Shown one piece after another: positions 6,000 through 31,816 of a stretch of DNA of 64,000 nt. The notes under the pieces are model-generated. The model saw only the letters and a list, made by a program, of their open reading frames with translations, was not told the origin of the DNA and made no database searches. How positions within the stretch are numbered: the stretch's first letter is position 1; the number at the start of each line of letters is the position of its first letter. The DNA is from Candidatus Nomurabacteria bacterium (GTDB lineage: Bacteria; Patescibacteriota; Minisyncoccia; Phycocordibacterales; UBA9973), in NCBI GenBank assembly GCA_963842815.1, contig CAWJHU010000001.1, positions 12,866 to 76,865 of the forward strand. The letters are read 5' to 3'. The position numbers and the translations under genes were made by a program.

Positions 6000-6791
6000 T
6001 TAAAAACCGGCCGGGAAAAGATGCAATTCAAAAAGAAAAGCAATCAACACGCCTAAAACCAAGAATGGAGCAAAGGGAATCTCGCTTTTTATTCCGTGCT
6101 TCTTTGAAAAGGCAATGAGAATGAGCCCCACAATTGCTCCGGACCAAAAAGCTATCACTGCTCCGGAAAGCAATCTGGAAAATCCGAGAAGCCAGCCTAA
6201 TCCCAGCGCGAGTTTTGCATCTCCCAACCCCATCCAGCTGCCCTTGGAGACAAGCCACAAAAAAGCAAAAGGCAGAGCCAGCAGTAATCCGGATAAAAAT
6301 TCCAGTATGGACGGAAGATGGGGATAAAATATAAAATCCGCGAAGAAAAACAACCCAATAAAAGCGATTAAACCGAAAATAAAAGCAAGAGTGTCGGGAA
6401 TGATCTTATGCTTAAAATCATAGACGGCGATAACCAAAAGAATGGAAAACATGGTGGCGTAATAGGCATAGGAAATGGAAAATGCAAATGTGTTTATGAA
6501 AAAAATATCCTGAAACTTCAAAAATAATCCCGCAAAAATCAATCCCGAAAGAAGTTCAACTATGGGATATTGGATTGAAATTTTTGCTTTGCAATTTCGG
6601 CATCTTCCCTTGAGAGCAAAAAAACTAATCAAGGGAATGAGTTCATGCCAACAAAGTTGTTTTTGGCAGGTCATGCATCCGCTTCTTCCGCCGAAAGAAC
6701 GACTGGTATTAAACCTAAAAATAACAACATTCAAGAAACTGCCGATAATAAGACCCAGAATGGAGAAAATAATTGTAAGAGTGAAAGTCAT
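6000..6791 (-). CDS. pilD: Prepilin peptidase (A24 family) PilD
   Basis: Polytopic membrane protein with N-terminal CxxC...CxxC ('CMTCQ...CRNC'), a catalytic Asp region 'GLGDAKLALGLG', and an overall A24 peptidase arrangement. Confidence 0.85.
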   Translation of the reverse strand: MTFTLTIIFSILGLIIGSFLNVVIFRFNTSRSFGGRSGCMTCQKQLCWHELIPLISFFALKGRCRNCKAKISIQYPIVELLSGLIFAGLFLKFQDIFFINTFAFSISYAYYATMFSILLVIAVYDFKHKIIPDTLAFIFGLIAFIGLFFFADFIFYPHLPSILEFLSGLLLALPFAFLWLVSKGSWMGLGDAKLALGLGWLLGFSRLLSGAVIAFWSGAIVGLILIAFSKKHGIKSEIPFAPFLVLGVLIAFLFELHLFPAGF

Positions 6792-6805: not shown

Positions 6806-7285
6806 TTAATTACAAGAAAAAGTCGTAGTACTTATGGCACCAGTGGCGGCATAGGGTTCTTGTTTTGACATTCCCCCGCTATCTACGCACCAAGAAGTAT
6901 TGGCTGTTGATTTCAAGCCGACAGCCACAGCCCAGTTGAGGGAAGAATTATAACAGGAACTTTTATTGCCTCTTTTGACCGCTTCCGTTATGGCATTGGA
7001 AATTGTTTTATCCTTGGCCAGCATATTTGACCCTGAAGCGTTATAGAGCGGACAGTTACCAATGCCGTAGGCAGAACCGCCGGCCGGCAAAAATGAATTG
7101 TCATTATTGGAATAAAAAAGTTCCGTTTGACCTCTGATGGTATCCAGATTACTTTTTACAGCCGCATCGGCGCCTTTGTTTCTGGAACTATCCAATACTA
7201 CTAAAGTAACCGAAACCAGGATAGCGATGATGGCTACCACGACCAAAAGTTCAATTAAGGTGAAGCCCTTTTTGAAGTTTTTCAT
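6806..7285 (-). CDS. Type IV pilin (variant paralog of the triplicated major pilin)
   Basis: N-terminal 'MKNFKKGFTLIELLVVVAIIAILVSV' is almost identical to the three copies upstream. The C-terminal domain is different and contains Cys pairs. Confidence 0.85.
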   Translation of the reverse strand: MKNFKKGFTLIELLVVVAIIAILVSVTLVVLDSSRNKGADAAVKSNLDTIRGQTELFYSNNDNSFLPAGGSAYGIGNCPLYNASGSNMLAKDKTISNAITEAVKRGNKSSCYNSSLNWAVAVGLKSTANTSWCVDSGGMSKQEPYAATGAISTTTFSCN

Positions 7286-7350
7286 ATAAAAATAAAATTA
7301 TAATAATACTTTATAACTTATTAATTATAGCATATCCATAAACAAACAAA

Positions 7351-7385
7351 AACCACCCCAAGTGAAAAATGAGGCGGTTTTTGTT
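7351..7385 (-). terminator. Intrinsic terminator hairpin downstream of each pilin copy (also at 7991-8025 and 8631-8665)
   Basis: The minus-strand RNA has aaccgccuca/uggggugguu as a 10-bp stem (with G-U pairs) followed by UUUUU. On the plus strand it is T-rich as well. Confidence 0.6.
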
Positions 7386-7404
7386 TTTCAGAACTAACCA
7401 AAGA

Positions 7405-7869
7405 TTACGGACAAACTGTAACACCAGAACCCAAAGAAGCTGATTCTTTTGAAGCCCCGGTAGAATCTACACACCAACCATCACTGGCCGTGGCAGGACC
7501 CTTCAAAGATGTAATGGCAGCCCAAGCAGTAGCAGAATCATGACAAACAGAAGAGTTTGCGGCACCTGTGGCGCTGTAGGCAAATGCATTAGAGGTAACC
7601 GTGTTTCCTGATGCTAGCTTTTGCGCAGCATTCAATATCATAGGACCGACACCTCCCGTAGCGGTACAAACACTGGCATATGTTTGGCCTGTATCATAGA
7701 AAAGTTCAGCCTGAGCACGGGCACCGGACATAGCAGCCTTAATGGCGGCATCTGAACCTTTTGTTCGGGCACTATTCAATGAAGCCAGAACAACTGAGGC
7801 CAAAATACCGATGATAGCTACCACGACCAAGAGTTCAATTAATGTAAAACCTTTTTTAAAATTCTTCAT
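7405..7869 (-). CDS. pilA: Type IV major pilin, tandem copy 1
   Basis: 154 aa, 'MKNFKKGFTLIELLVVVAIIGILASV...'. Identical to copy 2. Confidence 0.9.
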   Translation of the reverse strand: MKNFKKGFTLIELLVVVAIIGILASVVLASLNSARTKGSDAAIKAAMSGARAQAELFYDTGQTYASVCTATGGVGPMILNAAQKLASGNTVTSNAFAYSATGAANSSVCHDSATAWAAITSLKGPATASDGWCVDSTGASKESASLGSGVTVCP

Positions 7870-8044
7870 AATTTTTTATTCCGCTATGGCGGAACAACTT
7901 AATATTAACTAATAATTTTTTCCCCATCCTTAAATGGGATTTTCGACTTATTTTAAATACGCATATAATTATACCAAATATAAAAACAAAAACCACCCCA
8001 AGTGAAAAATGAGGCGGTTTTTGTTTTTCAGAACTAACCAAAGA

Positions 8045-8509
8045 TTACGGACAAACTGTAACACCAGAACCCAAAGAAGCTGATTCTTTTGAAGCCCCGG
8101 TAGAATCTACACACCAACCATCACTGGCCGTGGCAGGACCCTTCAAAGATGTAATGGCAGCCCAAGCAGTAGCAGAATCATGACAAACAGAAGAGTTTGC
8201 GGCACCTGTGGCGCTGTAGGCAAATGCATTAGAGGTAACCGTGTTTCCTGATGCTAGCTTTTGCGCAGCATTCAATATCATAGGACCGACACCTCCCGTA
8301 GCGGTACAAACACTGGCATATGTTTGGCCTGTATCATAGAAAAGTTCAGCCTGAGCACGGGCACCGGACATAGCAGCCTTAATGGCGGCATCTGAACCTT
8401 TTGTTCGGGCACTATTCAATGAAGCCAGAACAACTGAGGCCAAAATACCGATGATAGCTACCACGACCAAGAGTTCAATTAATGTAAAACCTTTTTTAAA
8501 ATTCTTCAT
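8045..8509 (-). CDS. pilA: Type IV major pilin, tandem copy 2 (identical to copy 1)
   Basis: Protein and DNA identical to 7405..7869, with a 640-bp period. Confidence 0.9.
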   Translation of the reverse strand: MKNFKKGFTLIELLVVVAIIGILASVVLASLNSARTKGSDAAIKAAMSGARAQAELFYDTGQTYASVCTATGGVGPMILNAAQKLASGNTVTSNAFAYSATGAANSSVCHDSATAWAAITSLKGPATASDGWCVDSTGASKESASLGSGVTVCP

Positions 8510-8684
8510 AATTTTTTATTCCGCTATGGCGGAACAACTTAATATTAACTAATAATTTTTTCCCCATCCTTAAATGGGATTTTCGACTTATTTTAAATAC
8601 GCATATAATTATACCAAATATAAAAACAAAAACCACCCCAAGTGAAAAATGAGGCGGTTTTTGTTTTTCAGAACTAACCAAAGA

Positions 8685-9149
8685 TTACGGACAAACTGTA
8701 ACACCAGAACCCAAAGAAGCTGATTCTTTTGAAGCCCCGGTAGAATCTACACACCAACCATCACTGGCCGTGGCAGGACCCTTCAAAGATGTAATGGCAG
8801 CCCAAGCAGTAGCAGAATCATGACAAACAGAAGAGTTTGCGGCACCTGTGGCGCTGTAGGCAAAATCTCCTGTACCTACTGTATTGGTTGCCGCTAGCTT
8901 TTGCGCAGCATTCAATATCATAGGACCGACACCTCCCGTAGCGGTACAAACACTGGCATATGTTTGGCCTGTATCATAGAAAAGTTCAGCCTGAGCACGG
9001 GCACCGGACATAGCAGCCTTAATGGCGGCATCTGAACCTTTTGTTCGGGCACTATTCAATGAAGCCAGAACAACTGAGGCCAAAATACCGATGATAGCTA
9101 CCACGACCAAGAGTTCAATTAATGTAAAACCTTTTTTAAAATTCTTCAT
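8685..9149 (-). CDS. pilA: Type IV major pilin, tandem copy 3 with a mosaic patch (AATNTVGTGDFAYS vs ASGNTVTSNAFAYS)
   Basis: Identical to copies 1 and 2 except for a ~35-nt substituted block at about 8861-8895. Confidence 0.9.
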   Translation of the reverse strand: MKNFKKGFTLIELLVVVAIIGILASVVLASLNSARTKGSDAAIKAAMSGARAQAELFYDTGQTYASVCTATGGVGPMILNAAQKLAATNTVGTGDFAYSATGAANSSVCHDSATAWAAITSLKGPATASDGWCVDSTGASKESASLGSGVTVCP

Positions 9150-9278
9150 AATTTACTTCTCTTACCCCATCCTAATGAGGTAAATTAACATCAATTAATA
9201 ATTTCGACTTATTCTTAATGAGCATATTATAACTTTTATTCTTACGGATGTGCAAAAGAGTTATCCACACCCGATTTT

Positions 9279-10487
9279 TTATTGTATGCTTCCGGCAAGG
9301 TTGTAAATAGGCATTAGAACAGAAACCAAAAGCACTCCTACGCCCAAACCTAAAACCACAATCATAACCGGCTCAATCAGGCCAACCAATGTGTCAACGG
9401 CGCCATCAACTTCCCGTTTATAAAAATCCGCCAAAGTTTTTAAAATTTCCCCCAGAGAGCCCGTTTCTTCTCCAATTTTAATCATTTGCACCATAATACC
9501 CGGAACCTGGGCCGTATGTTTTTCAAAGGCGGCAGAAAAAGACAGCCCCGATTTTACTCCATCGGCCACGTCTTTTAAAATGTCTCTATAGACTCGGCTA
9601 CCGACAACATCGGAAGTAATATCTATGGCCCGAACTATGGGGACTCCGGAGATAAGCATTGTATCCATATTGTCCGCTATTCTGGAAAGGTAAAGTTTTT
9701 TGTAAAGATTTCCTACGGCCGGCGTGGAGAGACGGATATTGTCCAGATAGATTTTGCCTTTTTCCGTGCTGGAAAGTCTCCACAACCAAATACCCAAAAG
9801 GATTATAAAAATAATGAGGAGAAAACCATAATGCAAGGAAAAATTGGAAAGGGCGATGACTATTTTTGTGTAAATCGGCGGGTCCTGCCCGGAATCAAGA
9901 ATAATAGCCGAAAGCTTAGGAATAACCACCACAAACATAAGTCCCATCACCACAAAAAAAGTGCAAATAACGAATATGGGATAGATAAGCGCATTTCTTG
10001 TTTTGGAAGTGAGAGAATATTGGCGGTCCAAATAATTTGCCAGATGTTCAAAAGTTTCATTCAATTTGCCGGTCTCTTCTCCCACCTTAACCATGTTGAC
10101 ATAAAAATTGGAAAAAACATCCGGGTGCTTGGCCAAGGCTCCGGAAATGGAAATTCCGGCCTGAAGGTCGTCGCTTATTTCCGTAAGTTTTTTGGAGAGA
10201 AGTTTATTTTCCGTATTGGCGGCCAGCATGGTAAAAGTTTTCAAAGCGGAAACTTGGGCGGTAAACAAAGTTGAAATCTGGCGGGAAAGAATCACGATTT
10301 CCTTCATGGAAACTTTTTCAAGAAAAGAAAAAGAGAGGAAGGATTTATTTTTTCCTTCTTCTCTGATGGAAATAATAATCAATCCCCTTCTCTGCAGGCC
10401 ACTGATGGCCATATCGCGGTTGGGCGCATCAATCTCCCCTTCTTTTTCTATTCCTTTGTCGTCTACCGATTTATATTTAAATAACAT
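9279..10487 (-). CDS. pilC: Type IV pilus assembly platform protein PilC (GspF family)
   Basis: 402 aa with two repeated GspF-like domains and three TM segments. Its position between pilT and the pilin genes fits. Confidence 0.85.
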   Translation of the reverse strand: MLFKYKSVDDKGIEKEGEIDAPNRDMAISGLQRRGLIIISIREEGKNKSFLSFSFLEKVSMKEIVILSRQISTLFTAQVSALKTFTMLAANTENKLLSKKLTEISDDLQAGISISGALAKHPDVFSNFYVNMVKVGEETGKLNETFEHLANYLDRQYSLTSKTRNALIYPIFVICTFFVVMGLMFVVVIPKLSAIILDSGQDPPIYTKIVIALSNFSLHYGFLLIIFIILLGIWLWRLSSTEKGKIYLDNIRLSTPAVGNLYKKLYLSRIADNMDTMLISGVPIVRAIDITSDVVGSRVYRDILKDVADGVKSGLSFSAAFEKHTAQVPGIMVQMIKIGEETGSLGEILKTLADFYKREVDGAVDTLVGLIEPVMIVVLGLGVGVLLVSVLMPIYNLAGSIQ

Positions 10488-10499: not shown

Positions 10500-11558
10500 T
10501 TATATTAAGCGTTCAAGGCCTTTGGGGTTAAGGGAAAATTGATAGGCATTTTCTATGGTAATTTCTCCGGCGCGAACAAGTTCTATGAGCGAATGGTTCA
10601 AATCTATCATTCCGGATTCTGTTCCGGTTTCTATAACCACATCTATTTCCTGGGTGCGCTTTTCCCGGATTAAATTAGCAACGGCATTGGTATTCAGAAG
10701 AAGTTCGCAGGCAGGAATGAGTCCGCCGGTTATTCTGGGAATGAGTCTTTGGGAAAAAATGCCCAGCAAGCTTCCGGCCAGCTGGAGACGAATTTGGTCC
10801 TGCTGGCTGCCGGGGAAAGAATCAATAATTCTGTCTATGGTTTGCGAAGCATTGTTGGTGTGCAAAGTTGAAAGCACCAGATGTCCCGTTTCGGCGGCAG
10901 TTACGGCTGTGGCAATCGTTTCCGGCGTGCGCATTTCTCCTATCATTATCACATTCACATCCTCGCGAAAAACCGACCGAAGAGCGGTATGAAAATCCGT
11001 GGTATCAATGCCGACTTCCCGCTGGTCAACTATAGATTTATTTGGGGTGTAGACATATTCAATGGGGTCCTCAATGGTTATAATGTGGCGCGCCTGTTCG
11101 TCATTAATCAGATTTACCATGGCTGACAACGTGGTTGATTTACCCTGTCCAACAGGGCCAACCGCCAGAAAAAATCCCTGTTTCTTGCGAGCCAATTCCG
11201 CAATAATGGGAGGCAGATTCAATTCCGCCAAAGATTTTACTTTTGGAACCAATCGAAAAGCAACGCTAATCAAACCTTTTTGGAAAAAAGCATTGCCCCG
11301 GAGGCGCGCTTCTCCGCGAAAGTCGTAGGAAAAATCTACTTCTTTGTCCTCCATAAATTTATTTAATTTCGCTTTGTCTAAAATTTCATTCAAAATGCCC
11401 ATTATGTCTTCTTTGGTTAGAACCGGATGTTTCAAAAGAAAAGTAAGTTCCCCTGCCACCCGAATAGCCGGAACTTTTCCAATTCCCAAATGCAAATCCG
11501 AACCATTCTCGTGGATAACGGTTAAGATAAGTTCCTCCAATTCTTTTTTATAATCCAT
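10500..11558 (-). CDS. pilT: Type IV pilus retraction ATPase PilT
   Basis: 352 aa with Walker A 'GPVGQGKST', 'IITIEDPIEY', His box 'GHLVLSTLHTN', and the PilT signature 'AVANLIREKR'. Confidence 0.85.
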   Translation of the reverse strand: MDYKKELEELILTVIHENGSDLHLGIGKVPAIRVAGELTFLLKHPVLTKEDIMGILNEILDKAKLNKFMEDKEVDFSYDFRGEARLRGNAFFQKGLISVAFRLVPKVKSLAELNLPPIIAELARKKQGFFLAVGPVGQGKSTTLSAMVNLINDEQARHIITIEDPIEYVYTPNKSIVDQREVGIDTTDFHTALRSVFREDVNVIMIGEMRTPETIATAVTAAETGHLVLSTLHTNNASQTIDRIIDSFPGSQQDQIRLQLAGSLLGIFSQRLIPRITGGLIPACELLLNTNAVANLIREKRTQEIDVVIETGTESGMIDLNHSLIELVRAGEITIENAYQFSLNPKGLERLI

Positions 11559-11634
11559 AAATTTATGTGGCGTTAATCTCGCAGTTAATTTTTATTGATA
11601 ATTTTTATTAATTATACCATAAAACAAAAATCGT

Positions 11635-13389
11635 TTATTCGTTCTCGTTGGTGAAATTGAAAACTTCCTTGTAGGGGATAATACCATCCAGAGCTTTGAG
11701 CATGGCATCCTCTCTCATCATAAGCATTCCATTTCCCCGGGCCACTTTGTAGATTTCGGAATCAACGGGATTTTTTAATATTACTTCCTGCATTTCTTTG
11801 CCTATTTTGAACATCTCAAAAATAGCAATACGGCCTCGGGTCCCGGAAGGACAATCCTGAGTCGGTACCGTATCATACATTTGATCTTTGATTACAATTT
11901 CTTTTCTAAATTTATCGGGTAAATCTTTTATTTCATCTTCAATCTGCAATTTGATGCTCGGGTCCATGGGTACCAGTTTTCGGCAGGAAGGAAAAGTCAA
12001 TCTGGCCAAACGTTGGGCAACGGACAAAATAAGGGTCGGGGCTATCAGGTACGGGTCAACTCCCATGTCCACCAAACGAGGAATGGCCCCAATGGCATTG
12101 TTGGTGTGCAGAGTTGAAAGCACCAGGTGTCCGGTTAAAGCGGCCTGAATAGCCAGCTGGGCTGTTTCCTTGTCGCGTATTTCTCCAACCATAATTACAT
12201 CCGGGTCCTGACGAAGAATGGAACGCAAACCGGAAGCGAATGTATATCCGATTTCTGGCATCATTTGGGATTGATTTATATCGGGCATATGATACTCTAT
12301 CGGGTCTTCCAGAGAAACAATATTGTATTTCTCTTTATCCAGTTCGTTCATCATTGAATACAGGGTTGTGGATTTACCGGAGCCTGTGGGCCCGGTAATT
12401 AAAATGAGGCCATAGGGCTTGGCCAGCGCCTCCTGAAGCATTTCAAGATTTCTTTTTGATAATCCCAGTTGGTCCAACGGCTTCACTCCTTTTTCCGCAT
12501 CCAAAATACGGATTACCACCTTCTCGCCATAATAGGCGGGCATAGTGGAAACACGAAAGTCAATTTTATGTCCGTCAAGATTAGTGCTGAAGGCTCCGTC
12601 CTGGGGTTTTCTTTTTTCATCCAAACGCAATTTAGCCAGAATTTTTACGCGCGCCACTATTCCACTGGCAACATTGGAAGGCAAAACAATGGATGTATGC
12701 AAAATTCCATCCACCCGAAAACGCACTTTCACTTTTTCTCCGGTATTTTCTATGTGTATGTCGGAAGCATTCTCTTCTATGGCATTGCGCAAAATCACGG
12801 CTACAATTTTTATAACCGGAGCATCTTCCACTATTTTTGCTTCCTCGTTTGATTTTACATTTTTAATTTCTTTGCTCAGAGTATTCAATTCGCTTAGGCT
12901 TTTTTCGTCCAGCGTTTCATCCTGATTCAATTCACTCAATGCTTCTTCCACTTGAACCGAAAGGCCTTTATAACTTTCCATTATGCTTTTATAATCGCTG
13001 TTGGAAATAAGAAAAATTTTAAAAGGAACACCCAGCTTGGCTGAAATAAATTGCAGCGCGTCAATCGCCTGAGTATTTTCTCCATTTAGAATGCCAACCT
13101 CCAACACTCCATCCTTAAATTCAATCGGAGCAAAATTATAATAGGTTGCGGCATCTTCCGGAATGTATTTAAGAGCGTCAAAAAAAGATGTGCTTTTAAT
13201 GTCAACCTTTTTTATCGGCATCTGCAAATATTCTCCTTTAATCTCAAGGATTTTTCCTTCCGGAACGCCGGATTCAATTAGGGCTTCATCAATGTTGCCG
13301 CTATACTTTTCTTTGGCAAGATTTTTAATTTCATCTATCTGGCTTTTGTTGATTGCGCCCTTTTTAGCTAATTCTTCTAAAAAACTCAT
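11635..13389 (-). CDS. pilB: Type IV pilus assembly ATPase PilB (GspE family)
   Basis: 584 aa with an N-terminal GSPII_E_N-like domain, Walker A 'GPTGSGKST', 'SLEDPIEY', and His box 'GHLVLSTLHTN'. Confidence 0.85.
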   Translation of the reverse strand: MSFLEELAKKGAINKSQIDEIKNLAKEKYSGNIDEALIESGVPEGKILEIKGEYLQMPIKKVDIKSTSFFDALKYIPEDAATYYNFAPIEFKDGVLEVGILNGENTQAIDALQFISAKLGVPFKIFLISNSDYKSIMESYKGLSVQVEEALSELNQDETLDEKSLSELNTLSKEIKNVKSNEEAKIVEDAPVIKIVAVILRNAIEENASDIHIENTGEKVKVRFRVDGILHTSIVLPSNVASGIVARVKILAKLRLDEKRKPQDGAFSTNLDGHKIDFRVSTMPAYYGEKVVIRILDAEKGVKPLDQLGLSKRNLEMLQEALAKPYGLILITGPTGSGKSTTLYSMMNELDKEKYNIVSLEDPIEYHMPDINQSQMMPEIGYTFASGLRSILRQDPDVIMVGEIRDKETAQLAIQAALTGHLVLSTLHTNNAIGAIPRLVDMGVDPYLIAPTLILSVAQRLARLTFPSCRKLVPMDPSIKLQIEDEIKDLPDKFRKEIVIKDQMYDTVPTQDCPSGTRGRIAIFEMFKIGKEMQEVILKNPVDSEIYKVARGNGMLMMREDAMLKALDGIIPYKEVFNFTNENE

Positions 13390-23116: not shown

Positions 23117-23162
23117 TGCAACACTAGTATTATACTATTTTTTAAAAAAAAGAAATGCGAAA

Positions 23163-23390
23163 ATTTGCGGTGTATGTTGGACAAAGTTCGAAACTATTTC
23201 GAGCTAAATCCAAATGATTAAAGCTAATGTGTACGCTCGACGTTATTCTTAATTTTAATATATCCACTACGCTCGGCTAATATGCTAATTCAAATGGACT
23301 CGGAAAATGGAAACAAATATTTTGGGGATTAGGATTTCCATTTTCCTCGACTGTATCTTTTGGCGAGATTCCGAATTCTGCCCGCAGGAG
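23163..23390. repeat. Left arm of an ~228-bp near-perfect inverted repeat (partner at 31588-31816)
   Basis: Direct comparison: the reverse complement of 31588-31816 matches 23163-23390 with only a handful of mismatches. Each arm also contains an internal 12-bp hairpin (ggaaaatggaaa...tttccattttcc). Confidence 0.9.
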
Positions 23391-23439
23391 AAATTCAAGT
23401 TCAAAATTCAAAACATTGTCTCGGGCAATTATACCATTT

Positions 23440-23880
23440 TTCTATTTTGGTGGTTACGCAAAGTTTTTGAGGTGCACCCTCGGCATCCGCCTCGGGCGTT
23501 TCCGCTAGGGCTACGAGTGCCTAGATGCCTATGAGCGGGCAAGCAAAATAACCGAACGGCTCAAATACCAGGAAATGAGCCGTTCACTAGATTGCCCGCA
23601 ACTTCTTGGGGAGAGGAAGTTTCCTCTCCCCGGGTCGGGCTCTCCTCGATTACGAGGAGTCTGCCCTCGCCATCCCCACTCTACGTTTTTCAATATTATG
23701 TTTGGTGTGTAGCTTTCGCTGTGAAGATTAGTATTTCAATTCGGGTCAGGCACTCGTCCTTTAGTCATGGACACCCTAGCGGAAATGCCCGAGGCGAAAT
23801 ACTCGTGCTTGCCCCGAGTTTTGCGATTACGCAAAACTCTACCCACCCGTGCGTGCACGCAAAATCACTCCCTTATTTTT
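23440..23880. other. GC-rich, densely self-complementary ~440-bp non-coding region (candidate structured RNA or recombination site)
   Basis: Visibly GC-rich compared with its surroundings. It contains a perfect hairpin ggggagagga-agtt-tcctctcccc, ctcctcg-atta-cgaggag, ttgcg-atta-cgcaa, and a long-range pairing of 23480-23518 with 23746-23795. No convincing ORF is present. Confidence 0.5.
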
Positions 23881-23883
23881 AAA

Positions 23884-24507
23884 TTAAATTCTTGAATACG
23901 AAACCGCATGTCCAGTTTTTCCAACTTGCTTGATTTTATTTTCTTTTTCCAAGATTGAAAGATATCGAGTTGCAGTTGCGTCAGAAATATGCAAAAACTT
24001 TTCTACTTCATCATTCGTGATTTTAGATTTTTTCAGAAACATTGCCATAACTTTATCCAACTTTTTCCTTTTTCGGAATTGAATTGCATTTTTTGCTTTA
24101 TTTAATAATTCAAGAACTTTGTTTTTATTTGGAATTATTACGGGAACAGGTTCAGGTTTGATCGGCTCAGGTTCAGAAGCCAACGGCTCATTTACTGGTA
24201 TTTGAGCCGTTCGGGTTTCAGAAGTTTGCACAGGTTTAGAAATTCCTTCAGCTTTTCCGCCTTCGGCGGGTAATTCTTCGGGTTTTGCTTCTTCAGGGCT
24301 AGGGGTAGAAATAGGCTCATTTTGAGGATTGTCATTATTAAGGGAAACGGGTATATCTGCGTTTTTAGGGGATTCTGGGGCTTCAGGGGGCATATTTGAG
24401 GGTTCAGAACCCTTTGCATCTATGGGTATATCAGCCATAGGCTCTTGAGGGCTTATTGGAATAGAGTTTTCTTCTGAAATTGGGTTTTGGGTAGTTTCAT
24501 CGGGCAT
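23884..24507 (-). CDS. Putative DNA-binding protein with a Pro/Glu-rich disordered N-terminus and a C-terminal winged helix
   Basis: The C-terminus 'ITNDEVEKFLHISDATATRYLSILEKENKIKQVGKTGHAVSY' is wHTH-like. Confidence 0.45.
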   Translation of the reverse strand: MPDETTQNPISEENSIPISPQEPMADIPIDAKGSEPSNMPPEAPESPKNADIPVSLNNDNPQNEPISTPSPEEAKPEELPAEGGKAEGISKPVQTSETRTAQIPVNEPLASEPEPIKPEPVPVIIPNKNKVLELLNKAKNAIQFRKRKKLDKVMAMFLKKSKITNDEVEKFLHISDATATRYLSILEKENKIKQVGKTGHAVSYSRI

Positions 24508-24535
24508 AACATGTAAATTATATACTATATCTAAA

Positions 24536-25339
24536 TTAAGTGTTTCGTTTTAAGAAATAAATTAAAACAAAAATCGCCAGCATTATCAAAACTATCGTTC
24601 CGCCAGTAGAAAGATTTAGATAAAAAGATAAAAATATTCCGGATATAACCGAGAACAAAGAAACAAGTTCTGCATATAGAATAGTTTGAGTAAAACTTTT
24701 TCGAAGTTGTAAGGCAGTAACTACTGGTATGACAATTAGGGCGGCGATAAGTAAAACTCCGACAATAGGAATTGAAAGAGAGACAGTCACAGCAGAAAGT
24801 ACAATTAAAATTGTATTAATAAATTTCGTCGGTATACCGCTTACTTTAGCCGCATCTTCATCAAAAGTAACAAATACAAGTTCCTTGTAAAATGCAAAAA
24901 GTGTCCCAATGACGATAATCGCTAGAATTAAAATCGTATAAACGTCATTTTGAGTAACTGTAACGATGCTTCCAAAAAGATAATTAAATAGATTGGTATT
25001 AAAACCATGAGCCAAGCTAAGTATTACTATTGCTAATGCGAGACTCCCAGAAAGGAAAAGAGCCAAAGCAGATTCACCGTAAACTCTTTTAGAATTTCTT
25101 AATTTTTCAATTCCCAAAGAAGCGACAACTGTTACTCCAAGCGCAGTTAAGATTGGATTTAAACCAAAAAGCAAAGCGATGGCAATGCCTGCGAGCGATA
25201 CGTGAGAAAGCGTATCAGCTATCAATGAATAGCGTCTTAATACCAAAAAAATACCGATCAAAGGAGCTATCACAGCTATTATTATCCCTGCTTCTAGTCC
25301 TCTTATGACAAATCCATATTGAAAAATATTTAAAAGCAT
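24536..25339 (-). CDS. znuB: Zinc/manganese ABC transporter permease (ZnuB-like, ABC-3 family)
   Basis: 267-aa polytopic membrane protein adjacent to the ATPase and the TroA-like binding protein. Confidence 0.75.
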   Translation of the reverse strand: MLLNIFQYGFVIRGLEAGIIIAVIAPLIGIFLVLRRYSLIADTLSHVSLAGIAIALLFGLNPILTALGVTVVASLGIEKLRNSKRVYGESALALFLSGSLALAIVILSLAHGFNTNLFNYLFGSIVTVTQNDVYTILILAIIVIGTLFAFYKELVFVTFDEDAAKVSGIPTKFINTILIVLSAVTVSLSIPIVGVLLIAALIVIPVVTALQLRKSFTQTILYAELVSLFSVISGIFLSFYLNLSTGGTIVLIMLAIFVLIYFLKRNT

Positions 25340-26107
25340 TTAATTATGGCGATGGTTAGTGATAATTTTTATGTCTTGACCGGGAATATTTTCAAGTTCA
25401 CTTGATTTCAAAAATTCTTCCACCGATGTATGAGAAACGAGGGTATAATCCACACAGGCAATATGCATTGCTTCTTTGATTATCCTATCTACATCATGAG
25501 TGACTAGAACTAAAGTCAAATCAAGCTCTTTGTTTAATTTTCTTAAGATATCATAAAAATCATCTTGAGATTTTTTATCAATTCCAGTTGTCGGTTCGTC
25601 TAAAAAAATTATTTCCGGTCGTCCTGCCAGAGCTCGAGCGATAAAGACGCGTTGCTGTTGACCTCCTGACAAATCGCCGATTAAACGATCTTTGAAATTC
25701 CACATCTCTACTTGTCTCAGCGACTCTTCTATAATTTTTTTATCTTGTTTGTCAGTGCCGTGGAGTAATCCCTTTTTTGCGAATCTTGCCATAGCCACGA
25801 CTTCTTTCACTGTGGCGGGGAAATTTACATCAAAATTAGTCGCTTTTTGTGGAACATAGCCGATTTTTGACCAATCCTTGAATTTTTTAATATCTTCTCC
25901 AAATATTTTAATTGAACCTTTGACTGGATTTAAAAGTCCAAGAATTATTTTTATCAAAGTTGTTTTTCCTGCGCCGTTCGGACCGACAATACCAATATAA
26001 TCTCCCTTGTGTATATCAAGGGTAATATTGCTCAACACCTCATCGTTATTATAACTAAATGAGATATCTTTAATTTCTATTATGTTTTTTGAGTGATCTA
26101 CTTGCAT
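25340..26107 (-). CDS. znuC: Zinc ABC transporter ATP-binding protein (ZnuC-like)
   Basis: Walker A 'GPNGAGKTT', ABC signature 'LSGGQQQR', and Walker B 'IIFLDEP'. Confidence 0.85.
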   Translation of the reverse strand: MQVDHSKNIIEIKDISFSYNNDEVLSNITLDIHKGDYIGIVGPNGAGKTTLIKIILGLLNPVKGSIKIFGEDIKKFKDWSKIGYVPQKATNFDVNFPATVKEVVAMARFAKKGLLHGTDKQDKKIIEESLRQVEMWNFKDRLIGDLSGGQQQRVFIARALAGRPEIIFLDEPTTGIDKKSQDDFYDILRKLNKELDLTLVLVTHDVDRIIKEAMHIACVDYTLVSHTSVEEFLKSSELENIPGQDIKIITNHRHN

Positions 26108-27018
26108 TGTAGCGCTATTCTTAAATTAGTTAAATTATTTTGCATTTCAGTTAAATAATTATTACCTTGCGCTATTTCGTCATTACTCAAACCCTCTATC
26201 GGATTTAACACTAGAGTTTTTGCTCCGACTTCTGTTGCGATAGTATCAGCCAATTTTGGACTAACTAAACTTTCAAAAAATATATATTTTACGTTATTGG
26301 CTTTGGCAAATTTTACAATATCTGCTAATTGTGCGGGTGATGGTTCGGCGTCAGGAGAAAGACCGGTGATTGATACTTGGTTAAGCCCATATGATGAAGA
26401 CAGATAACCAAAAGCGGCGTGAGAGGTGATAATATTTTTTTCCGAACAACTGCTTAATCCTTGTTTGTATTCTTTATCTAAATTATCCAATTTCGTTTTT
26501 AATGTATTTGTATTTGTTTTATAAAATTCCGTATTTACTGGATCAACTTGAACAAAACTTCCGGCAATTTTATCTACCATTTCTTTTGCAAGTTGTGGAC
26601 TCAACCAAACATGAGGATCAATAACATTATTTCCATTTTCTAGTACTTTTTGATTGGTTAAATTTTGTCCTGCGATTACTACAGTAGTTTTTTGAGGATC
26701 GATATTTTTCTGTATATTATCTCCCCAAGCTTCTAATCCTCCACCATTTAAAACAAGGAGTTTACTATTGTCTATTTGAGCTATATCTAAAGCAGTAGGC
26801 TCATAGTCGTGTGGTTCAGCCCCAGCGGGAGTTATATTCACCACATTTGCTTTATCTCCACCTATTTGGCTTGAAAAGAAATAGAGCGGATAAAAACTCG
26901 TTGTCACTTGTAGTTTATTTGACTGTGCTGTTGGTTTTTGTGCACTATTTATAATAAGAGTTAAAATACCAATAAAAACTACTCCCATTACTAAACCCAA
27001 TAAATATTTTTTATTCAT
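26098..27018 (-). CDS. znuA: Zinc ABC transporter substrate-binding protein (ZnuA/TroA-like)
   Basis: Signal/anchor N-terminus, metal-ligand His/Asp positions ('EPHDYEPT', 'DPHVWLSP'), and its position in the operon. Confidence 0.8.
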   Translation of the reverse strand: MNKKYLLGLVMGVVFIGILTLIINSAQKPTAQSNKLQVTTSFYPLYFFSSQIGGDKANVVNITPAGAEPHDYEPTALDIAQIDNSKLLVLNGGGLEAWGDNIQKNIDPQKTTVVIAGQNLTNQKVLENGNNVIDPHVWLSPQLAKEMVDKIAGSFVQVDPVNTEFYKTNTNTLKTKLDNLDKEYKQGLSSCSEKNIITSHAAFGYLSSSYGLNQVSITGLSPDAEPSPAQLADIVKFAKANNVKYIFFESLVSPKLADTIATEVGAKTLVLNPIEGLSNDEIAQGNNYLTEMQNNLTNLRIALQCK

Positions 27019-27021
27019 AAA

Positions 27022-27459
27022 TTATTTTTTAACACATGATTTACATAAACCAAAAAAATCAAAAGTATGATTTGTGATTTCTGCAAAATCGGGCGTTTGT
27101 TTTAATACTTTGCTAATAATATTTTTTGAACCGCATTCAATAAAATCCTTCACCTTGTCGCATTTGATACACACGATATGGTGATGATGATTTCTTGAGG
27201 CAAGTTCGTACCATCTTTTATTGCCTGTTAATTGTATTTCTAAAATAATACCTTCTTTCTTTAATAGATTAAGCTCACGATATAGAGTAGTTTTGTTTGC
27301 AGATATTTTATTCTTTTTGAGTAACTTCTGAAAATCAGAAGCGGAAAGTGGCTTATCGTTTTTACTAAGCGAATTCAAAACAAAATTTCGCATAGCGCTA
27401 AATCTGTGTCCTCTTTTTTTTAGTTTCAATAAAATGCCCTTTTCTTCAGCCATGCACAC
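27022..27459 (-). CDS. zur: Fur-family metalloregulator, probably Zur
   Basis: N-terminal wHTH and a C-terminal 'HHHHIVCIKC...C' metal site. It lies immediately upstream of znuABC. Confidence 0.75.
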   Translation of the reverse strand: MCMAEEKGILLKLKKRGHRFSAMRNFVLNSLSKNDKPLSASDFQKLLKKNKISANKTTLYRELNLLKKEGIILEIQLTGNKRWYELASRNHHHHIVCIKCDKVKDFIECGSKNIISKVLKQTPDFAEITNHTFDFFGLCKSCVKK

Positions 27460-27465
27460 ATCTTA

Positions 27466-27490
27466 ACGCAACCGTGTTGCGTTTGTCAAG
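27466..27490. promoter_or_regulatory. Putative Zur/Fur operator palindrome (aacgcaac-cgt-gttgcgtt) just upstream of zur
   Basis: Perfect 8-3-8 inverted repeat, 7-30 nt upstream of the zur start on the transcribed side. Confidence 0.5.
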
Positions 27491-27580
27491 AACATATTTT
27501 TATTATTTCAAAATTAATCTTTGAGGAAAATCGGCATTTCTGCATGTTTAGAGTATATCAAAAGTTAAATTAAATAAAAA

Positions 27581-27612
27581 AATAAAGAGGCAACATTCGT
27601 TGCCTCTTTATT
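27581..27612. terminator. Bidirectional intrinsic terminator hairpin (aaagaggcaac-attcg-ttgcctcttt)
   Basis: 11-bp perfect stem flanked by an A-run and a T-run. It lies downstream of the minus-strand 66-aa gene. Confidence 0.6.
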
Positions 27613-27639
27613 TCGCTATTCCGTTTTCCAGAACCTGTT

Positions 27640-27840
27640 TCATTTTCTGTTATAAGGGGATTGGTTCGTTGGATGAAGTGAGATATTTTTCTCACTTGCC
27701 TTTGAGTATACAGCTTCGGGAGTTCTACCTATCTTTAAACTAATGACCCCCGTAGGAGTATTTTTACTCGCAAGCGTTCTTAATTGCTGAACATCTTCTC
27801 TGGTCCAATGTTTGCCAGAATTTCGATTATATTTAGCCAT
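27640..27840 (-). CDS. Small hypothetical protein (66 aa)
   Basis: ORF followed by a terminator. I recognise no motif. Confidence 0.4.
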   Translation of the reverse strand: MAKYNRNSGKHWTREDVQQLRTLASKNTPTGVISLKIGRTPEAVYSKASEKNISLHPTNQSPYNRK

Positions 27841-27874
27841 AAATTACGAAGAATAGTTAATAATAAACAAATTG

Positions 27875-28168
27875 CTATGCTCTACATTCGGGCAATTTTA
27901 GAAGATTGTCCGTTTTCACATCATCAGGTATGGTTTTTACATACTTAGTGCCAAGCGCAGTAATTCCCGTAATAAGGTATGCCTTATTACCATACGCGTC
28001 TTTAACATATGCTTGATTTCCAGCTTTCACGAAATCATATATTTCAAGGCGAGTCGATTTTCCTGTTTCTTGAGAATTTTCATTGATCCACCCTAAGTCT
28101 GTAATTGCAGTATAGGGATTTTCATGATTACCCCCGTCTTTGTTGATACAAATAATTTTAACAGCCAT
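27875..28168 (-). CDS. DUF3892-like small protein
   Basis: 'ICINKDGG...GWINE...KAYLIT...DDVKTDNLLKLPEC' matches my recollection of the DUF3892 pattern. Confidence 0.45.
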   Translation of the reverse strand: MAVKIICINKDGGNHENPYTAITDLGWINENSQETGKSTRLEIYDFVKAGNQAYVKDAYGNKAYLITGITALGTKYVKTIPDDVKTDNLLKLPECRA

Positions 28169-28275
28169 AATTTTTTATTTGGTTACGTTATTGTTTTTAT
28201 AATCTCGACCTTTGTAAATAATTCACTTATTTATCTCTCCAAACATATTTCTTCCCAAAAGGAGCTATTGGTTTT

Positions 28276-28404
28276 ATGGGTCTGATTTGCGGAATTTTGG
28301 GTATTGGTGGTATTCTTGGGATGCGTGGAATTTTCGGTATACTAGGAATTTTTGGAAAAAACTTTGGGTCTTTTGTTAATCTCCATGGCATAAAGTTTAT
28401 TTAA
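28276..28404 (+). CDS. Unannotated small ORF: 42-aa Gly-zipper hydrophobic peptide (MGLICGILGIGGILGMRGIFGILGIFGKNFGSFVNLHGIKFI)
   Basis: AGGAG sits 8 nt upstream of the ATG. The peptide is a strongly hydrophobic GxxxG-repeat. It lies in the lexA-like/DUF3892 intergenic region and is too short for the ORF track. Confidence 0.45.
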   Translation: MGLICGILGIGGILGMRGIFGILGIFGKNFGSFVNLHGIKFI

Positions 28405-28556
28405 AATGTTTATTTATAATGATAATTCTGTCGAGTTCATAGTTTTTAAAAAACTATCAGAATTATTGCCCATTTCAGAATCTATTGATAATCAAAGATA
28501 TAAACTGTGGATAACTAGGGCTTGTTTAGGTTATCTTTAGGTAGTATACTCTAAAT

Positions 28557-29186
28557 ATGTATAAAAAGTCAAGTATTATAGGAATAGGAAAACCATCAAA
28601 ACGTCAAACTGAGATACTTCAGTTTGCTAGGGAGTATCGAAGAGAAAATGGGTACTCTCCAGTCCTTTCGGAAATGGCCAAACATTTTAATGTGTCAATT
28701 CCAACAATCCATCAGCATATTGATTCTTTGCGAAAGAAAAATCTCCTTACTGTTGAAAAAGGAAAAAAAAGATCTATCCAAGAACTTCGCAACCCACAAC
28801 TGCTAGTTGCTGAAATTCCTTTAATGGGGATTATTTCTGCCGGAGGTCCTATTGAAGCAATTAGAGATCCAAAACCAATTGAAGTTCCAAAAAATATGCT
28901 TTCAAGTGGTTCAAATTATTATGCATTAAAAGTTTCTGGACGGAGTATGATTGAGGAAGGAATATCAGATGGAGATATTGTAATAATACGAGAACAGTCA
29001 ACAGTCGATGATGGAGAAAAGGCTGTTGCGTATATGCCAGATAGAAATGAGGTTACATTAAAAAAAATTTATCGAGAAAAAGATCGCATAAAACTTGTTC
29101 CGGCGAATAAATACATGGAACCTTTTTATGAAACAAATGTTGAAATACAAGGAAAGGTTATGGGAGTACTTAGGAAAGAAATTTAA
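28557..29186 (+). CDS. LexA/CI-like autocleaving repressor (HTH + S24 peptidase domain)
   Basis: N-terminal wHTH, and a C-terminal S24 fold with Ser in 'VSGRSMIEEG' and Lys in 'TLKKIYR'. Confidence 0.75.
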   Translation: MYKKSSIIGIGKPSKRQTEILQFAREYRRENGYSPVLSEMAKHFNVSIPTIHQHIDSLRKKNLLTVEKGKKRSIQELRNPQLLVAEIPLMGIISAGGPIEAIRDPKPIEVPKNMLSSGSNYYALKVSGRSMIEEGISDGDIVIIREQSTVDDGEKAVAYMPDRNEVTLKKIYREKDRIKLVPANKYMEPFYETNVEIQGKVMGVLRKEI

Positions 29187-29205
29187 TAAATGTTAAAATA
29201 ATTTT

Positions 29206-30780: not shown

Positions 30781-30783
30781 TTT

Positions 30784-31566
30784 ATGGCTTTGTCTAAAGA
30801 ACAAATAAAGAATGTTGAGGATGTTTTAAAAGCAAGTTTACGTAATAAGTTTCAAAACTATAGTCCAGAACCAGCATCAATGCCTTTTCATACTAGATTA
30901 TTAGGAAAAGACAGACTCGCTTTGTATTCCTTTATTCATTCATTGAATACGAATTTTGGTACAAGTATTTTTGAGCCAGTAGGACTTGCTTTGGCACAAA
31001 AAAGTTTTAAATTAGCAACTTCACAAGCAACAGCAGGAGATCAAATTAGTGACGAAGCACAGAAAGAAATTCAAAAGATTATAGATGGTCTTAATACAGC
31101 AACAAGTTTGCCAAATAAAAAAGAAGAAATCGAAAGAATAAGAAAAGTTTGTCAAAAAGGACAAATGATAAAAGTTAAACCAACAAAAGTTGACTTAATG
31201 TTTGAATCAAAAGAAGGTGCATATTTTTTATTTGATATTAAAACAGCAAAACCAAATGCTGGTGGATTTAAAGAATTTAAACGCACACTTTTGGAGTGGG
31301 TTGCTGTAATTTTAGCTAAAAATCCAAATGCAGATGTGAATACTTTTATTGCTATTCCATATAATCCTTACGAGCCAGAGCCATATACTCGTTGGACAAT
31401 GCGTGGAATGCTTGATTTAGAAAACGAACTCAAGGTAGCAGATGAATTTTGGGATTTTCTTGGTGGTAAAAATACATATAAAGATTTACTTGATTGTTTT
31501 GAAAGAGTGGGCATTGAATTAAGAGAAGAAATTGATAATTATTTCAAACGTTTCAATAAAAAATAG
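30784..31566 (+). CDS. Putative type II restriction endonuclease (cognate to the adjacent methyltransferase)
   Basis: Immediately downstream of the MTase and roughly 260 aa. The family is not confidently recognised. Confidence 0.45.
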   Translation: MALSKEQIKNVEDVLKASLRNKFQNYSPEPASMPFHTRLLGKDRLALYSFIHSLNTNFGTSIFEPVGLALAQKSFKLATSQATAGDQISDEAQKEIQKIIDGLNTATSLPNKKEEIERIRKVCQKGQMIKVKPTKVDLMFESKEGAYFLFDIKTAKPNAGGFKEFKRTLLEWVAVILAKNPNADVNTFIAIPYNPYEPEPYTRWTMRGMLDLENELKVADEFWDFLGGKNTYKDLLDCFERVGIELREEIDNYFKRFNKK

Positions 31567-31587
31567 CCCGCATTCCTCCCCAAACCC

Positions 31588-31816
31588 CTCCTGCGGGCAG
31601 AATTTGAAATCTCGCCAAAAGACACAGCCGAGGAAAATGGAAATCCTAATCCCCAAAATATTTGTTTCCATTTTCCGAGTCCATTTGAATTAGCATATTA
31701 GCCGAGCGTAGTGGATATATTAAAATTAAGAATAACGTCGAGCGTACACATTAGCTTTAATCATTTGGATTTAGCTCGAAATAGTTTCGAACTTTGTCCA
31801 ACATACACCGCAAATT
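31588..31816. repeat. Right arm of the ~228-bp inverted repeat (partner at 23163-23390)
   Basis: See the left arm. Confidence 0.9.

What the first reader, a model, noticed from the sequence alone, without database searches (positions are those of the whole stretch)
7346..9152. Perfect 640-bp tandem triplication of the major pilin cassette, with a mosaic patch in the third copy
Three pilin genes (7405-7869, 8045-8509, 8685-9149) lie in a 640-bp-period tandem array. Each copy carries its own upstream TATAAT-like sequence and downstream terminator hairpin. Copies 1 and 2 are 100% identical over the whole unit. Copy 3 differs only by a ~35-nt replaced block (ASGNTVTSNAFAYS becomes AATNTVGTGDFAYS), the signature of segmental gene conversion. 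A fourth, divergent pilin with the same N-terminus follows at 6806-7285. Such perfect repeats are either very recent amplifications (gene dosage of pilin) or a recombination-driven pilin variation system. They are also prone to assembly collapse, so the true copy number may differ.
Basis: seen in the sequence. Interest (0 to 1): 0.6.

Follow-up and report, generated by a model that had tools for sequence, protein, structure and literature searches.

The report
Tandem major pilin gene array
A tiny-genome groundwater-type bacterium (Candidatus Nomurabacteria) carries three head-to-tail, almost identical copies of its main pilus-fibre gene. The copies are kept identical by recombination except for one exposed surface loop; this is a real but fairly ordinary kind of gene amplification that short-read assemblies usually hide.

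Summary
Period-640 identity is perfect over 7344-8864, and copies 1 and 2 match at 640/640 nt. Copy 3 shares 531 nt and differs at 18 positions, all inside one 28-nt block (8865-8892). It is 2.83 units, not a perfect triplication: the promoter region of copy 3 is only about 65% identical to the inter-copy spacer.

An independent k=31 assembly of run ERR10755942 breaks exactly 30 nt inside both repeat edges. At least two tandem copies therefore exist in raw reads. The count of three and the S-S-T order rest on one assembly.

The array lies between pilC and a conserved second pilin gene plus pilD, in the type IV pilus locus of a Ca. Nomurabacteria genome. The nearest relative (85% nt identity) has the same junction and spacer, yet its copies are identical to each other. 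The array is therefore old and homogenised by concerted evolution, and only the last S-copy duplication is recent.

[quoted passage not shown] Copy 3 carries the family-typical form. Three other lineages show independent identical or near-identical pilin arrays, two of them collapsed into cyclic contigs.

No feature of a Neisseria-type variation system was found. The likely function, which is inferred, is pilin dosage plus two co-expressed surface isoforms.

The parts
9279..10487 (-). pilC (T2SSF platform protein), immediately upstream of the array
   Evidence: Pfam T2SSF 2.4e-60. Used as the anchor for 80 related loci.
9155..9278 (-). Native pilC-pilA intergenic region, holding the promoter and 5'UTR of copy 3. 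Contains -35 TGCACA (9249-9254), -10 TATAAT (9226-9231), a DnaA-box-like TTATCCACA (9261-9269) and the conserved AAGTCGA motif (9204-9210).
   Evidence: Orthologous to the pilC-pilA intergenic regions of L082, L087 and L001. Only about 65% identical to the inter-copy spacer.
8685..9149 (-). pilinA copy 3 (T-type loop, AATNTVGTGDF), 154 aa prepilin
   Evidence: (N_methyl 1.7e-09).
8865..8892 (-). Variable patch, T form (codons 86-95). 18 of 28 nt differ from copies 1 and 2.
   Evidence: Differs from the relative L081 at only 5 nt over the 12-codon patch region, against 20 for the S form.
8622..8668 (-). Intrinsic terminator hairpin after copy 3
   Evidence: Inverted repeat I5. Identical in sequence to the hairpin folded (dG -25.6 kcal/mol, z -5.8).
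8515..8623 (-). Inter-copy spacer holding the promoter and 5'UTR of copy 2. Extended -10 TGGTATAAT at 8608-8616. Contains the 27-nt hairpin insertion.
8045..8509 (-). pilinA copy 2 (S-type loop, ASGNTVTSNAF)
8225..8252 (-). Variable patch, S form, in copy 2
7982..8028 (-). Intrinsic terminator hairpin after copy 2
7875..7983 (-). Inter-copy spacer holding the promoter and 5'UTR of copy 1. Extended -10 at 7968-7976. 100% identical to 8515-8623.
7405..7869 (-). pilinA copy 1 (S-type loop)
7585..7612 (-). Variable patch, S form, in copy 1
7344..7386 (-). Intrinsic terminator hairpin after copy 1. Position 7344 is the left edge of the repeat.
   Evidence: dG -27.4 kcal/mol, z -5.0.
6806..7285 (-). 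pilinB, the conserved second major-type pilin (159 aa, 44% identical to pilinA). It has its own extended -10 TGCTATAAT at 7324-7332.
   Evidence: Orthologues follow pilinA in L082, L087 and L177.
6000..6791 (-). pilD prepilin peptidase (A24)
   Evidence: Pfam A24_N_bact 1.2e-29 and Peptidase_A24 1.2e-10.

Best explanation
This is a real head-to-tail array of a self-contained major type IV pilin expression cassette. Each unit holds an extended -10 promoter, a roughly 95-nt 5'UTR, a 154-codon prepilin gene and a strong intrinsic terminator. The array sits in the type IV pilus locus (pilMNO-pilB-pilT-pilC-[pilinA x3]-pilinB-pilD-minor pilins) of a Candidatus Nomurabacteria (Paceibacterota, CPR) genome.

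Shown:
- The array is older than its perfect identity suggests. The first duplication joined the terminator and -10 region downstream of pilinA to the -10 box of the native pilinA promoter.
- The resulting spacer has since diverged to about 65% identity with the native promoter region, and it is shared with a relative that is 13-15% diverged.
- Coding sequence and terminator are identical within each genome. This means recurrent homogenisation by unequal crossing-over or gene conversion (concerted evolution).

Inferred:
- The present state arose from a two-copy T-S array by an unequal crossover 3' of the patch, giving T-S-S.
[quoted passage not shown] It is an old allele that was retained or transplanted, not new mutation.
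- The array raises pilin dosage and lets the cell make two major-pilin isoforms. These either co-polymerise into a mosaic pilus surface, as PilE1 and PilE2 do in Streptococcus sanguinis, or are expressed differentially. Only copy 3 keeps the native -35 and the conserved upstream element.
For: Repeat geometry and patch.

Pilin identity and locus.

Tandem junction present in raw reads: Logan k=31 contigs of ERR10755942 align to window 18427-9125 and 7373-3646. Each stops exactly k-1 = 30 nt inside a repeat edge, at 9154 and 7344.

Old origin and concerted evolution:
- L081/L095 has the same layout: 3' end of an upstream pilinA, terminator, spacer, pilinA, terminator, pilinB. Its period is 642 nt, and its two visible copies are 118/118 identical to each other while carrying L081-specific substitutions.
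- Window copy 3 and the L081 coding sequence differ at 61/465 nt, spread over 44 synonymous and 9 non-synonymous codons. Window paralogues differ at 0 sites outside the patch.
- The spacer is 65% identical to the native upstream region but 82% identical to the L081 spacer, with a shared 27-nt insertion.

Patch location:
- It lies in the most variable, indel-rich columns of the family alignment.
- It immediately follows helix 75-85 in a model with pLDDT 90.
- T-like loops occur in 11 of the top 120 relatives, S-like loops in 2.

Recurrence in other lineages:
- L176 and L179 are cyclic megahit contigs whose first 141 nt equal their last 141 nt, with periods of 598 and 596 nt.
- L077 has two pilinA genes with identical mature sequence. 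The second carries the leader of the downstream pilinB, as expected from a crossover in the conserved N-terminal coding region.

Promoter-terminator module: a terminator followed by TGnTATAAT is conserved in all A-to-A and A-to-B intergenic regions.

Against: - The copy number of three and the S-S-T order on one molecule come from a single deposited assembly (a 337,777-nt contig) of unknown read technology. A k=31 graph proves only that at least two junction contexts exist.
- S and T could belong to different co-existing strains.
- Only 118 nt of the upstream copy in L081 are visible.
- No expression, proteomic or filament data exist. Dosage and mosaic pilus are inference from precedent.
- Close relatives P0002 and P0003 have a single pilinA, so the array is not universal.
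- Foldseek found no significant PDB match. The surface exposure of the patch rests on general pilin architecture.
Confidence: 0.6

Rival explanations
1. The array is real (at least two copies), but the three-copy S-S-T arrangement is the assembler's resolution of a loop-plus-bubble graph. The true copy number differs, and S and T may be alleles of different co-existing strains rather than paralogues in one genome.
For: A perfect 881-nt repeat exceeds short-read and k-mer lengths. The Logan assembly of the same population fragments exactly at the repeat edges and yields no full pilinA gene. L174 differs from the window at 3 of 9303 nt, so slightly different genotypes do exist. Related lineages collapse into cyclic units.
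Against: A minimal graph traversal would give two copies, not three. A three-copy result therefore suggests evidence from long reads or from coverage. The relative L081 shows a T-type copy downstream of another copy, so multi-copy arrays occur on single contigs. None of this fixes the phasing in the window.
Confidence: 0.2
2. A dedicated, programmed pilin antigenic-variation system of the Neisseria pilE/pilS type (or a Moraxella-type inversion), in which the extra copies serve as donor cassettes for high-frequency gene conversion.
For: The copies differ by a short, sharply bounded block in a hypervariable loop, as with Neisseria mini-cassettes. Identical flanks would support RecA-mediated conversion.
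Against: All copies are full-length, each with its own promoter, start codon, leader peptide and terminator. There are no 5'-truncated silent cassettes. There is no G4 motif anywhere in the window and no other pilin-like sequence outside the locus. No donor for either patch was found at k>=12. No invertase or recombinase is adjacent; the only recombinase is 22 kb away in a separate element.
Confidence: 0.07
3. A transient, selectively neutral recent amplification of a single gene with no functional meaning. The patch would have been imported once by homologous recombination with DNA from another strain.
For: Copies 1 and 2 including the spacer are 100% identical, so the last step is very recent. 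Close relatives with one copy exist. S-like loops occur in other lineages that could act as donors (P0004, P0010).
Against: The spacer is old and shared with a diverged relative, so a state of at least two copies has persisted across speciation. Independent arrays with different junctions occur in at least three other lineages. That argues for recurrent selection or a strong structural predisposition rather than a one-off accident.
Confidence: 0.13

Closest known systems
Streptococcus sanguinis pilE1/pilE2 (two adjacent major pilin genes; heteropolymeric type IV pilus)
   Same: Adjacent full-length major pilin genes with high identity. [quoted passage not shown]
   Different: Here there are three copies. 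Two encode the same protein, and the nucleotide sequence is identical outside a 28-nt block. Each copy has its own promoter and terminator. Co-polymerisation is untested. The organism is a CPR bacterium.
Bartonella Trw type IV secretion system trwL/trwJ tandem amplification (Nystedt et al. 2008, cited in PMC12102498)
   Same: Tandemly amplified surface pilus-subunit genes. [quoted passage not shown]
   Different: Those are VirB2-type conjugative pilins of a T4SS, not type IV pilins, and the machinery and protein fold differ. Trw copies are more diverged (from my own knowledge).
VirB2 pilin arrays of Patescibacteria (PMC12102498)
   Same: Arrays of 2-11 pilin genes in CPR genomes, proposed to aid adaptation to hosts.
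   Different: A different pilin family. Those arrays average 25% aa identity with a maximum of 54%, whereas these copies are 96-100% identical.
Neisseria pilE/pilS antigenic variation
   Same: Short block replacement in a variable region of a type IV major pilin.
   Different: No silent promoterless cassettes, no G4 element and no donor were found. All copies are expression-competent.
Legionella pilA1/pilA2 and other paired major-type pilins; also pilinA/pilinB in this clade
   Same: Two related major-type pilin genes side by side (PMC13170364 abstract). The pilC-pilinA-pilinB-pilD layout is the norm in 80 related loci.
   Different: Those pairs are diverged paralogues. The feature here is a further, homogenised amplification of one of them.

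Membership tests
Type IV pilin (T4aP-like major pilin) | Class III signal peptide: short basic leader, Gly at -1, hydrophobic N-terminus with Glu at +5 | tested here: met
   MKNFKKG|FTLIELLVVVAIIGILA. Pfam N_methyl PF07963 at 1.7e-09, above the gathering score.
Type IV pilin (T4aP-like major pilin) | Long N-terminal alpha1 helix packed on a C-terminal antiparallel beta-sheet head | tested here: met
   AlphaFold2 model with pLDDT 90.4: helix 10-59, alpha-beta helix 75-85, four strands between 107 and 143. A PDB profile search hits PilA/PilE N-termini, and 9laa_A matches over residues 1-133.
Type IV pilin (T4aP-like major pilin) | Significant structural match to solved pilins | tested here: inconclusive
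Type IV pilin (T4aP-like major pilin) | Linked assembly machinery: PilB, PilT, PilC, PilM/N/O, prepilin peptidase | tested here: met
   Pfam hits for T2SSF and A24. The L174 gene table, 99.97% identical to the window, shows PilM_2, PilO, two T2SSE proteins and T2SSF.
Type IV pilin (T4aP-like major pilin) | It is the major (fibre-forming) subunit | not testable with these tools
   Inferred from its position directly after pilC, its own strong promoter and terminator, conservation of the family (7675 hits) and the amplification itself.
Tandem gene array under concerted evolution | Paralogues within a genome are more alike than orthologues between genomes | tested here: met
   Window copies show 0 differences outside the patch. 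Against the L081 orthologue there are 61/465 nt differences. The L081 copies are 118/118 identical to each other and share lineage-specific substitutions.
Tandem gene array under concerted evolution | The duplication is older than the identity of the copies implies | tested here: met
   The spacer is 65% identical to the native upstream region and 82% identical to the L081 spacer, with a shared 27-nt insertion.
Heteropolymeric pilus with two major pilins (S. sanguinis type) | Two expression-competent major pilin genes that differ in an exposed loop | tested here: met
Heteropolymeric pilus with two major pilins (S. sanguinis type) | Both proteins are made and co-assemble in one filament | not testable with these tools
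   Needs proteomics or cryo-EM.
Neisseria-type pilE/pilS gene-conversion system | Silent, promoterless, 5'-truncated donor cassettes | tested here: not met
   All copies are complete with promoter, ATG and leader. The window holds no other pilin-like sequence. The rest of the genome was not available.
Neisseria-type pilE/pilS gene-conversion system | G-quadruplex-forming sequence upstream of the expression locus | tested here: not met
   No G3+N1-7 x4 motif on either strand anywhere in the 64-kb window.
Diversity-generating retroelement target | A template repeat near-identical to the variable region, with differences at template adenines, plus a reverse transcriptase | tested here: not met
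   Neither patch has a further copy in the window at k>=12. The window was not scanned for a reverse transcriptase.

The most novel reading that the evidence does not exclude
Nomurabacteria, and perhaps other CPR bacteria, routinely keep their major type IV pilin as a homogenised tandem array of self-contained promoter-gene-terminator cassettes. Copy number and hypervariable-loop content shift by unequal crossing-over between conserved terminator/-10/N-terminal modules. This would be a simple RecA-driven 'accordion' for pilin dosage and surface variation in host attachment or phage evasion. It would be systematically invisible because short-read assemblers collapse it into cyclic contigs of about 600 nt or break contigs at pilC.
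Probability: 0.3. Interest if true: 0.55.

Novelty: new member of a known kind. Interest (0 to 1): 0.4.

Why it matters
CPR bacteria have very small, streamlined genomes with few duplicated genes and depend on contact with host cells. Type IV pili are their best-supported tool for attachment and DNA uptake.

Several lineages keep multiple identical copies of the main fibre gene, and the copies differ only in the exposed loop. This points to strong selection on pilin quantity and on surface identity.

There is also a practical warning. In short-read metagenome assemblies these arrays appear as cyclic contigs of about 600 nt or as contig breaks after pilC. Pilin copy number and variant content in CPR MAGs are therefore probably under-reported.

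Tried and rejected
- Tandem Repeats Finder found nothing relevant because its period cap is 500. The repeat was verified by direct offset comparison instead.
Folding confirmed them.
- Exact-protein look-ups of both pilinA variants found no contig, although both are in the protein collection from the 337,777-nt source contig. PilC and pilinB look-ups found the Logan contigs.
- Search for a donor of the patch: no k>=12 match elsewhere in the window. pilinB shares only 'SNA' at the protein level, with no shared 10-mer, so it was rejected as donor.
- DGR was rejected because there is no template repeat.
- A Neisseria-like system was rejected because there are no G4 motifs or silent cassettes.
- Rfam and tRNA scans show no RNA gene in the array.
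- The JGI metagenome scan gave no relative closer than L081/L095.
- Literature searches found no report of identical type IV pilin arrays in Nomurabacteria and nothing for ERR10755942.
- Several MAG contigs end at or just inside the 5' end of pilinA (L033, L036, L066, L067, L059). This fits repeat-induced breaks, but strain heterogeneity could cause the same, so it was not used as evidence.
Full report

Yes. Three 154-codon ORFs lie on the minus strand at 7405-7869, 8045-8509 and 8685-9149. Comparing the window with itself at an offset of 640 nt gives two perfect runs: 7344-8224 equals 7984-8864 (881 nt), and 8253-8514 equals 8893-9154 (262 nt).

Unit 1 (7344-7983) and unit 2 (7984-8623) match at 640/640. 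Unit 3 shares only 531 nt (8624-9154). It differs from unit 2 at 18 positions, all inside 8865-8892, with no indel. If 18 mismatches were spread at random over 531 nt, the chance of all falling in one 28-nt window is about 5e-24.

The array is therefore 2.83 units, not a perfect triplication. The 124 nt upstream of copy 3 (9155-9278) are homologous to the inter-copy spacer (7875-7983 = 8515-8623) but only about 65% identical, with indels.

**2. What are the genes?**

Each product has a class III signal peptide (MKNFKKG|FTLIELL; Pfam N_methyl 1.7e-09). A profile of the family hits the N-terminal helix of solved PilA/PilE pilins, and one PilA (9laa_A) matches over residues 1-133.

The AlphaFold2 model (pLDDT 90.4) has helix 10-59, a short helix 75-85 and four strands between 107 and 143. 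Foldseek gave no significant PDB match.

The neighbours, all on the minus strand, are:
- pilC, 9279-10487 (T2SSF).
- Two T2SSE ATPases, 10500-11558 and 11635-13389.
- PilM and PilO upstream of those.
- A second major-type pilin ('pilinB', 44% identical), 6806-7285.
- Prepilin peptidase, 6000-6791.
- Three minor pilins, between 4381 and 5994.

PilC-anchored loci name the organism as Candidatus Nomurabacteria / Paceibacterota (CPR); the best PilC identity is 89%.

**3. Each copy is a self-contained cassette.**

A hairpin of 17-19 bp flanked by A- and U-tracts follows every copy (7344-7386, 7982-8028, 8622-8668; dG -25 to -27 kcal/mol, z -5 to -6).

Copies 1 and 2 have an extended -10 (TGGTATAAT, 7968-7976 and 8608-8616). 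Copy 3 has TGCACA-17-TATAAT (9254-9226). pilinB has TGCTATAAT (7324-7332).

Across ten A-to-A and A-to-B intergenic regions from six lineages, the module 'terminator, about 10-15 nt, TGnTATAAT' is conserved.

**4. Is it an assembly artefact?**

The source contig is 337,777 nt and is held in NCBI and ENA. An independent Logan (k=31) assembly of run ERR10755942 contains the same population:
- L174 equals window 18427-9125 (99.97% identity).
- L175 equals window 7373-3646 (100% identity).

Both contigs stop exactly 30 nt (k-1) inside the repeat edges at 9154 and 7344. That is what a de Bruijn graph does when the repeat interior has two different contexts on each side. The spacer-to-pilinA and terminator-to-spacer junctions therefore exist in raw reads, and there are at least two tandem copies.

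The graph cannot show that there are exactly three copies, or that the S and T patches sit on one molecule. I could not test this.

**5. Age of the array.**

The closest relative is the metagenomic contig L081 (identical to L095): 1,074 nt, with a pilin 92% identical in protein and about 85% in nucleotides. It aligns end to end with window 8095-7023. Its layout is: 3' end of an upstream pilinA, terminator, inter-copy spacer, pilinA, terminator, start of pilinB.

Its period is 642 nt. The 118 nt visible in both of its copies are identical to each other and carry L081-specific substitutions. Its spacer has the same junction and the same 27-nt hairpin insertion as the window's spacer. That insertion is absent from the native pilC-pilinA regions of the window, L082, L087 and L001.

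The key identities:

| Comparison | Result |
|---|---|
| Window spacer vs L081 spacer | 82% |
| Window spacer vs native upstream region | 65% |
| Window copy 3 CDS vs L081 CDS | 61/465 nt differ (44 synonymous, 9 non-synonymous codons) |
| Window paralogues outside the patch | 0 differences |

The duplication therefore predates the split of the two lineages. The coding sequence and terminator have been kept identical within each genome. This is concerted evolution by unequal crossing-over and/or gene conversion.

Only the last step is recent. A two-copy T-S array that underwent an unequal crossover 3' of the patch yields exactly T-spacer-S-spacer-S with identical spacers. This last step is inference.

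**6. The patch.**

Codons 86-95 change from SGNTVTSNAF (copies 1 and 2, 'S') to ATNTVGTGDF (copy 3, 'T'). Four conserved codons inside the block all differ synonymously, and six differ non-synonymously. The block is therefore an old, saturated allele. It is not recent point mutation or a cluster of sequencing errors.

It falls in the most variable, indel-rich columns of the family alignment, directly after the alpha-beta helix of the model. By general knowledge of type IV pilins, this region is exposed on the filament.

L081 carries the T form, with 5 nt differences over the 12-codon region against 20 for S. T-like loops occur in 11 of the 120 best relatives, and S-like loops in two (P0004, P0010). 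Copy 3 is thus the 'ordinary' copy, and copies 1 and 2 carry the unusual loop. No donor for either form exists in the window.

**7. Recurrence in other lineages.**

Most of the 80 related loci have pilC-pilinA-pilinB-pilD with diverged paralogues. The P0002 and P0003 lineages have one pilinA. Three further lineages show arrays:
- L176 (P0004; megahit k141; 739 nt). Its first 141 nt equal its last 141 nt, which marks a collapsed perfect repeat of period 598.
- L179 (P0013; 737 nt). The same pattern, with period 596.
- L077. It has two pilinA genes with identical mature sequence (period 730, 97.4% nt identity) followed by pilinB. The second pilinA carries pilinB's unusual leader, as expected from an unequal crossover inside the conserved N-terminal coding region.

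The L176 and L179 spacers resemble A-to-B intergenic regions rather than the window's spacer. These amplifications are therefore independent events.

**8. Mechanism and function.**

Shown: the structure, the promoters and terminators by sequence, concerted evolution, and recurrence.

Inferred: conserved modules shared by adjacent pilin genes (terminator, -10 box, N-terminal coding sequence) predispose the locus to unequal recombination. Selection keeps the arrays because they raise pilin supply and allow two surface isoforms.

The best precedent is S. sanguinis. [quoted passage not shown]

Copy 3 alone retains the native -35 and a conserved TGTGGATAA element. Differential regulation of T versus S is therefore possible.

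**9. Rejected alternatives.**

- Neisseria-type variation: there are no silent cassettes, no G4 motif and no other pilin sequence in the window.
- DGR: there is no template repeat.
- RNA genes: none in the array.

**10. Verdict.**

This is a real, well-defined tandem array of the major pilin cassette. Its perfect identity reflects homogenisation of an old array plus one recent expansion. It is a new member of a known kind (tandem major-pilin paralogues and amplified pilus-subunit arrays) and is of moderate interest. The main unresolved point is the exact copy number and phasing, which needs reads.

Noticed in passing
window 23162-33570: Probable integrated element next to tRNA-Ser(gct) at 33481-33570. 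It holds a 524-aa large serine recombinase ORF (31961-33535) whose 3' end overlaps the tRNA, a putative methyltransferase/restriction pair (29206-31566), a LexA/S24-like repressor (28557-29186), and a zinc ABC transporter with a Fur-family regulator (24536-27459). A 229-nt inverted repeat lies at 23162-23390 and 31816-31588 (98% identity). A peptide motif (PRGAWKILAGFGFG..SSALRADAFFGG) recurs at the recombinase C-terminus and in an antisense ORF at 31757-32056.
   Followed up: partly
window 9261-9269 (+ strand TTATCCACA); also L082, L087, L001, L178: A perfect DnaA-box-like 9-mer (TGTGGATAA on the coding strand) sits just upstream of the -35 of the native pilinA promoter. It is conserved in the pilC-pilinA intergenic regions of L082, L087 and L001 (L178 has TGTGGATCA). 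It is absent from the inter-copy spacer. The motif occurs only three times in the window, at 4029, 9261 and 28506.
   Followed up: partly
window 7943-7949, 8583-8589, 9204-9210 (minus-strand AAGTCGA): The motif AATAAGTCGA, about 20 nt downstream of the -10 box, is invariant in the pilinA 5' leaders of all six aligned sequences from five lineages. Its function is unknown; it could mark the transcription start region or a regulatory site.
   Followed up: no
L077 3637-4206 and 4367-4912; P0015: Two adjacent pilins in L077 and the homologue P0015 have unusually long leaders that look like a duplicated leader (MKNSKKVFILRDSKGFTHQNFFKKISG|GFTLIELL, 27 aa), where this family normally has about 7 aa.
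   Followed up: no
window 33678-33765 (+) and 33481-33570 (-): ARAGORN calls two divergently oriented tRNA-Ser genes about 100 nt apart. One has the unusual anticodon ACT. Rfam reports only the ACT one at gathering score.
   Followed up: no
window 10500-13389 versus L082 2925-3326 and L087 7175-7573: The relatives carry a single-domain response regulator gene (about 132 aa) between pilB and pilT. The window has only a 76-nt gap there.
   Followed up: no
L033, L036, L066, L067, L059 (contig ends): Several Nomurabacteria MAG contigs end within 31-432 nt after pilC, that is, at or just inside the 5' end of pilinA. This suggests that assembly breaks at the pilin array or paralogues are common.
   Followed up: partly
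window 38974-39374: A tmRNA gene (Rfam 133.6 bits) with tag peptide AKLTDKVKAIVSPYFGMANFSFASVSASA, which is long for a tmRNA tag.
   Followed up: no
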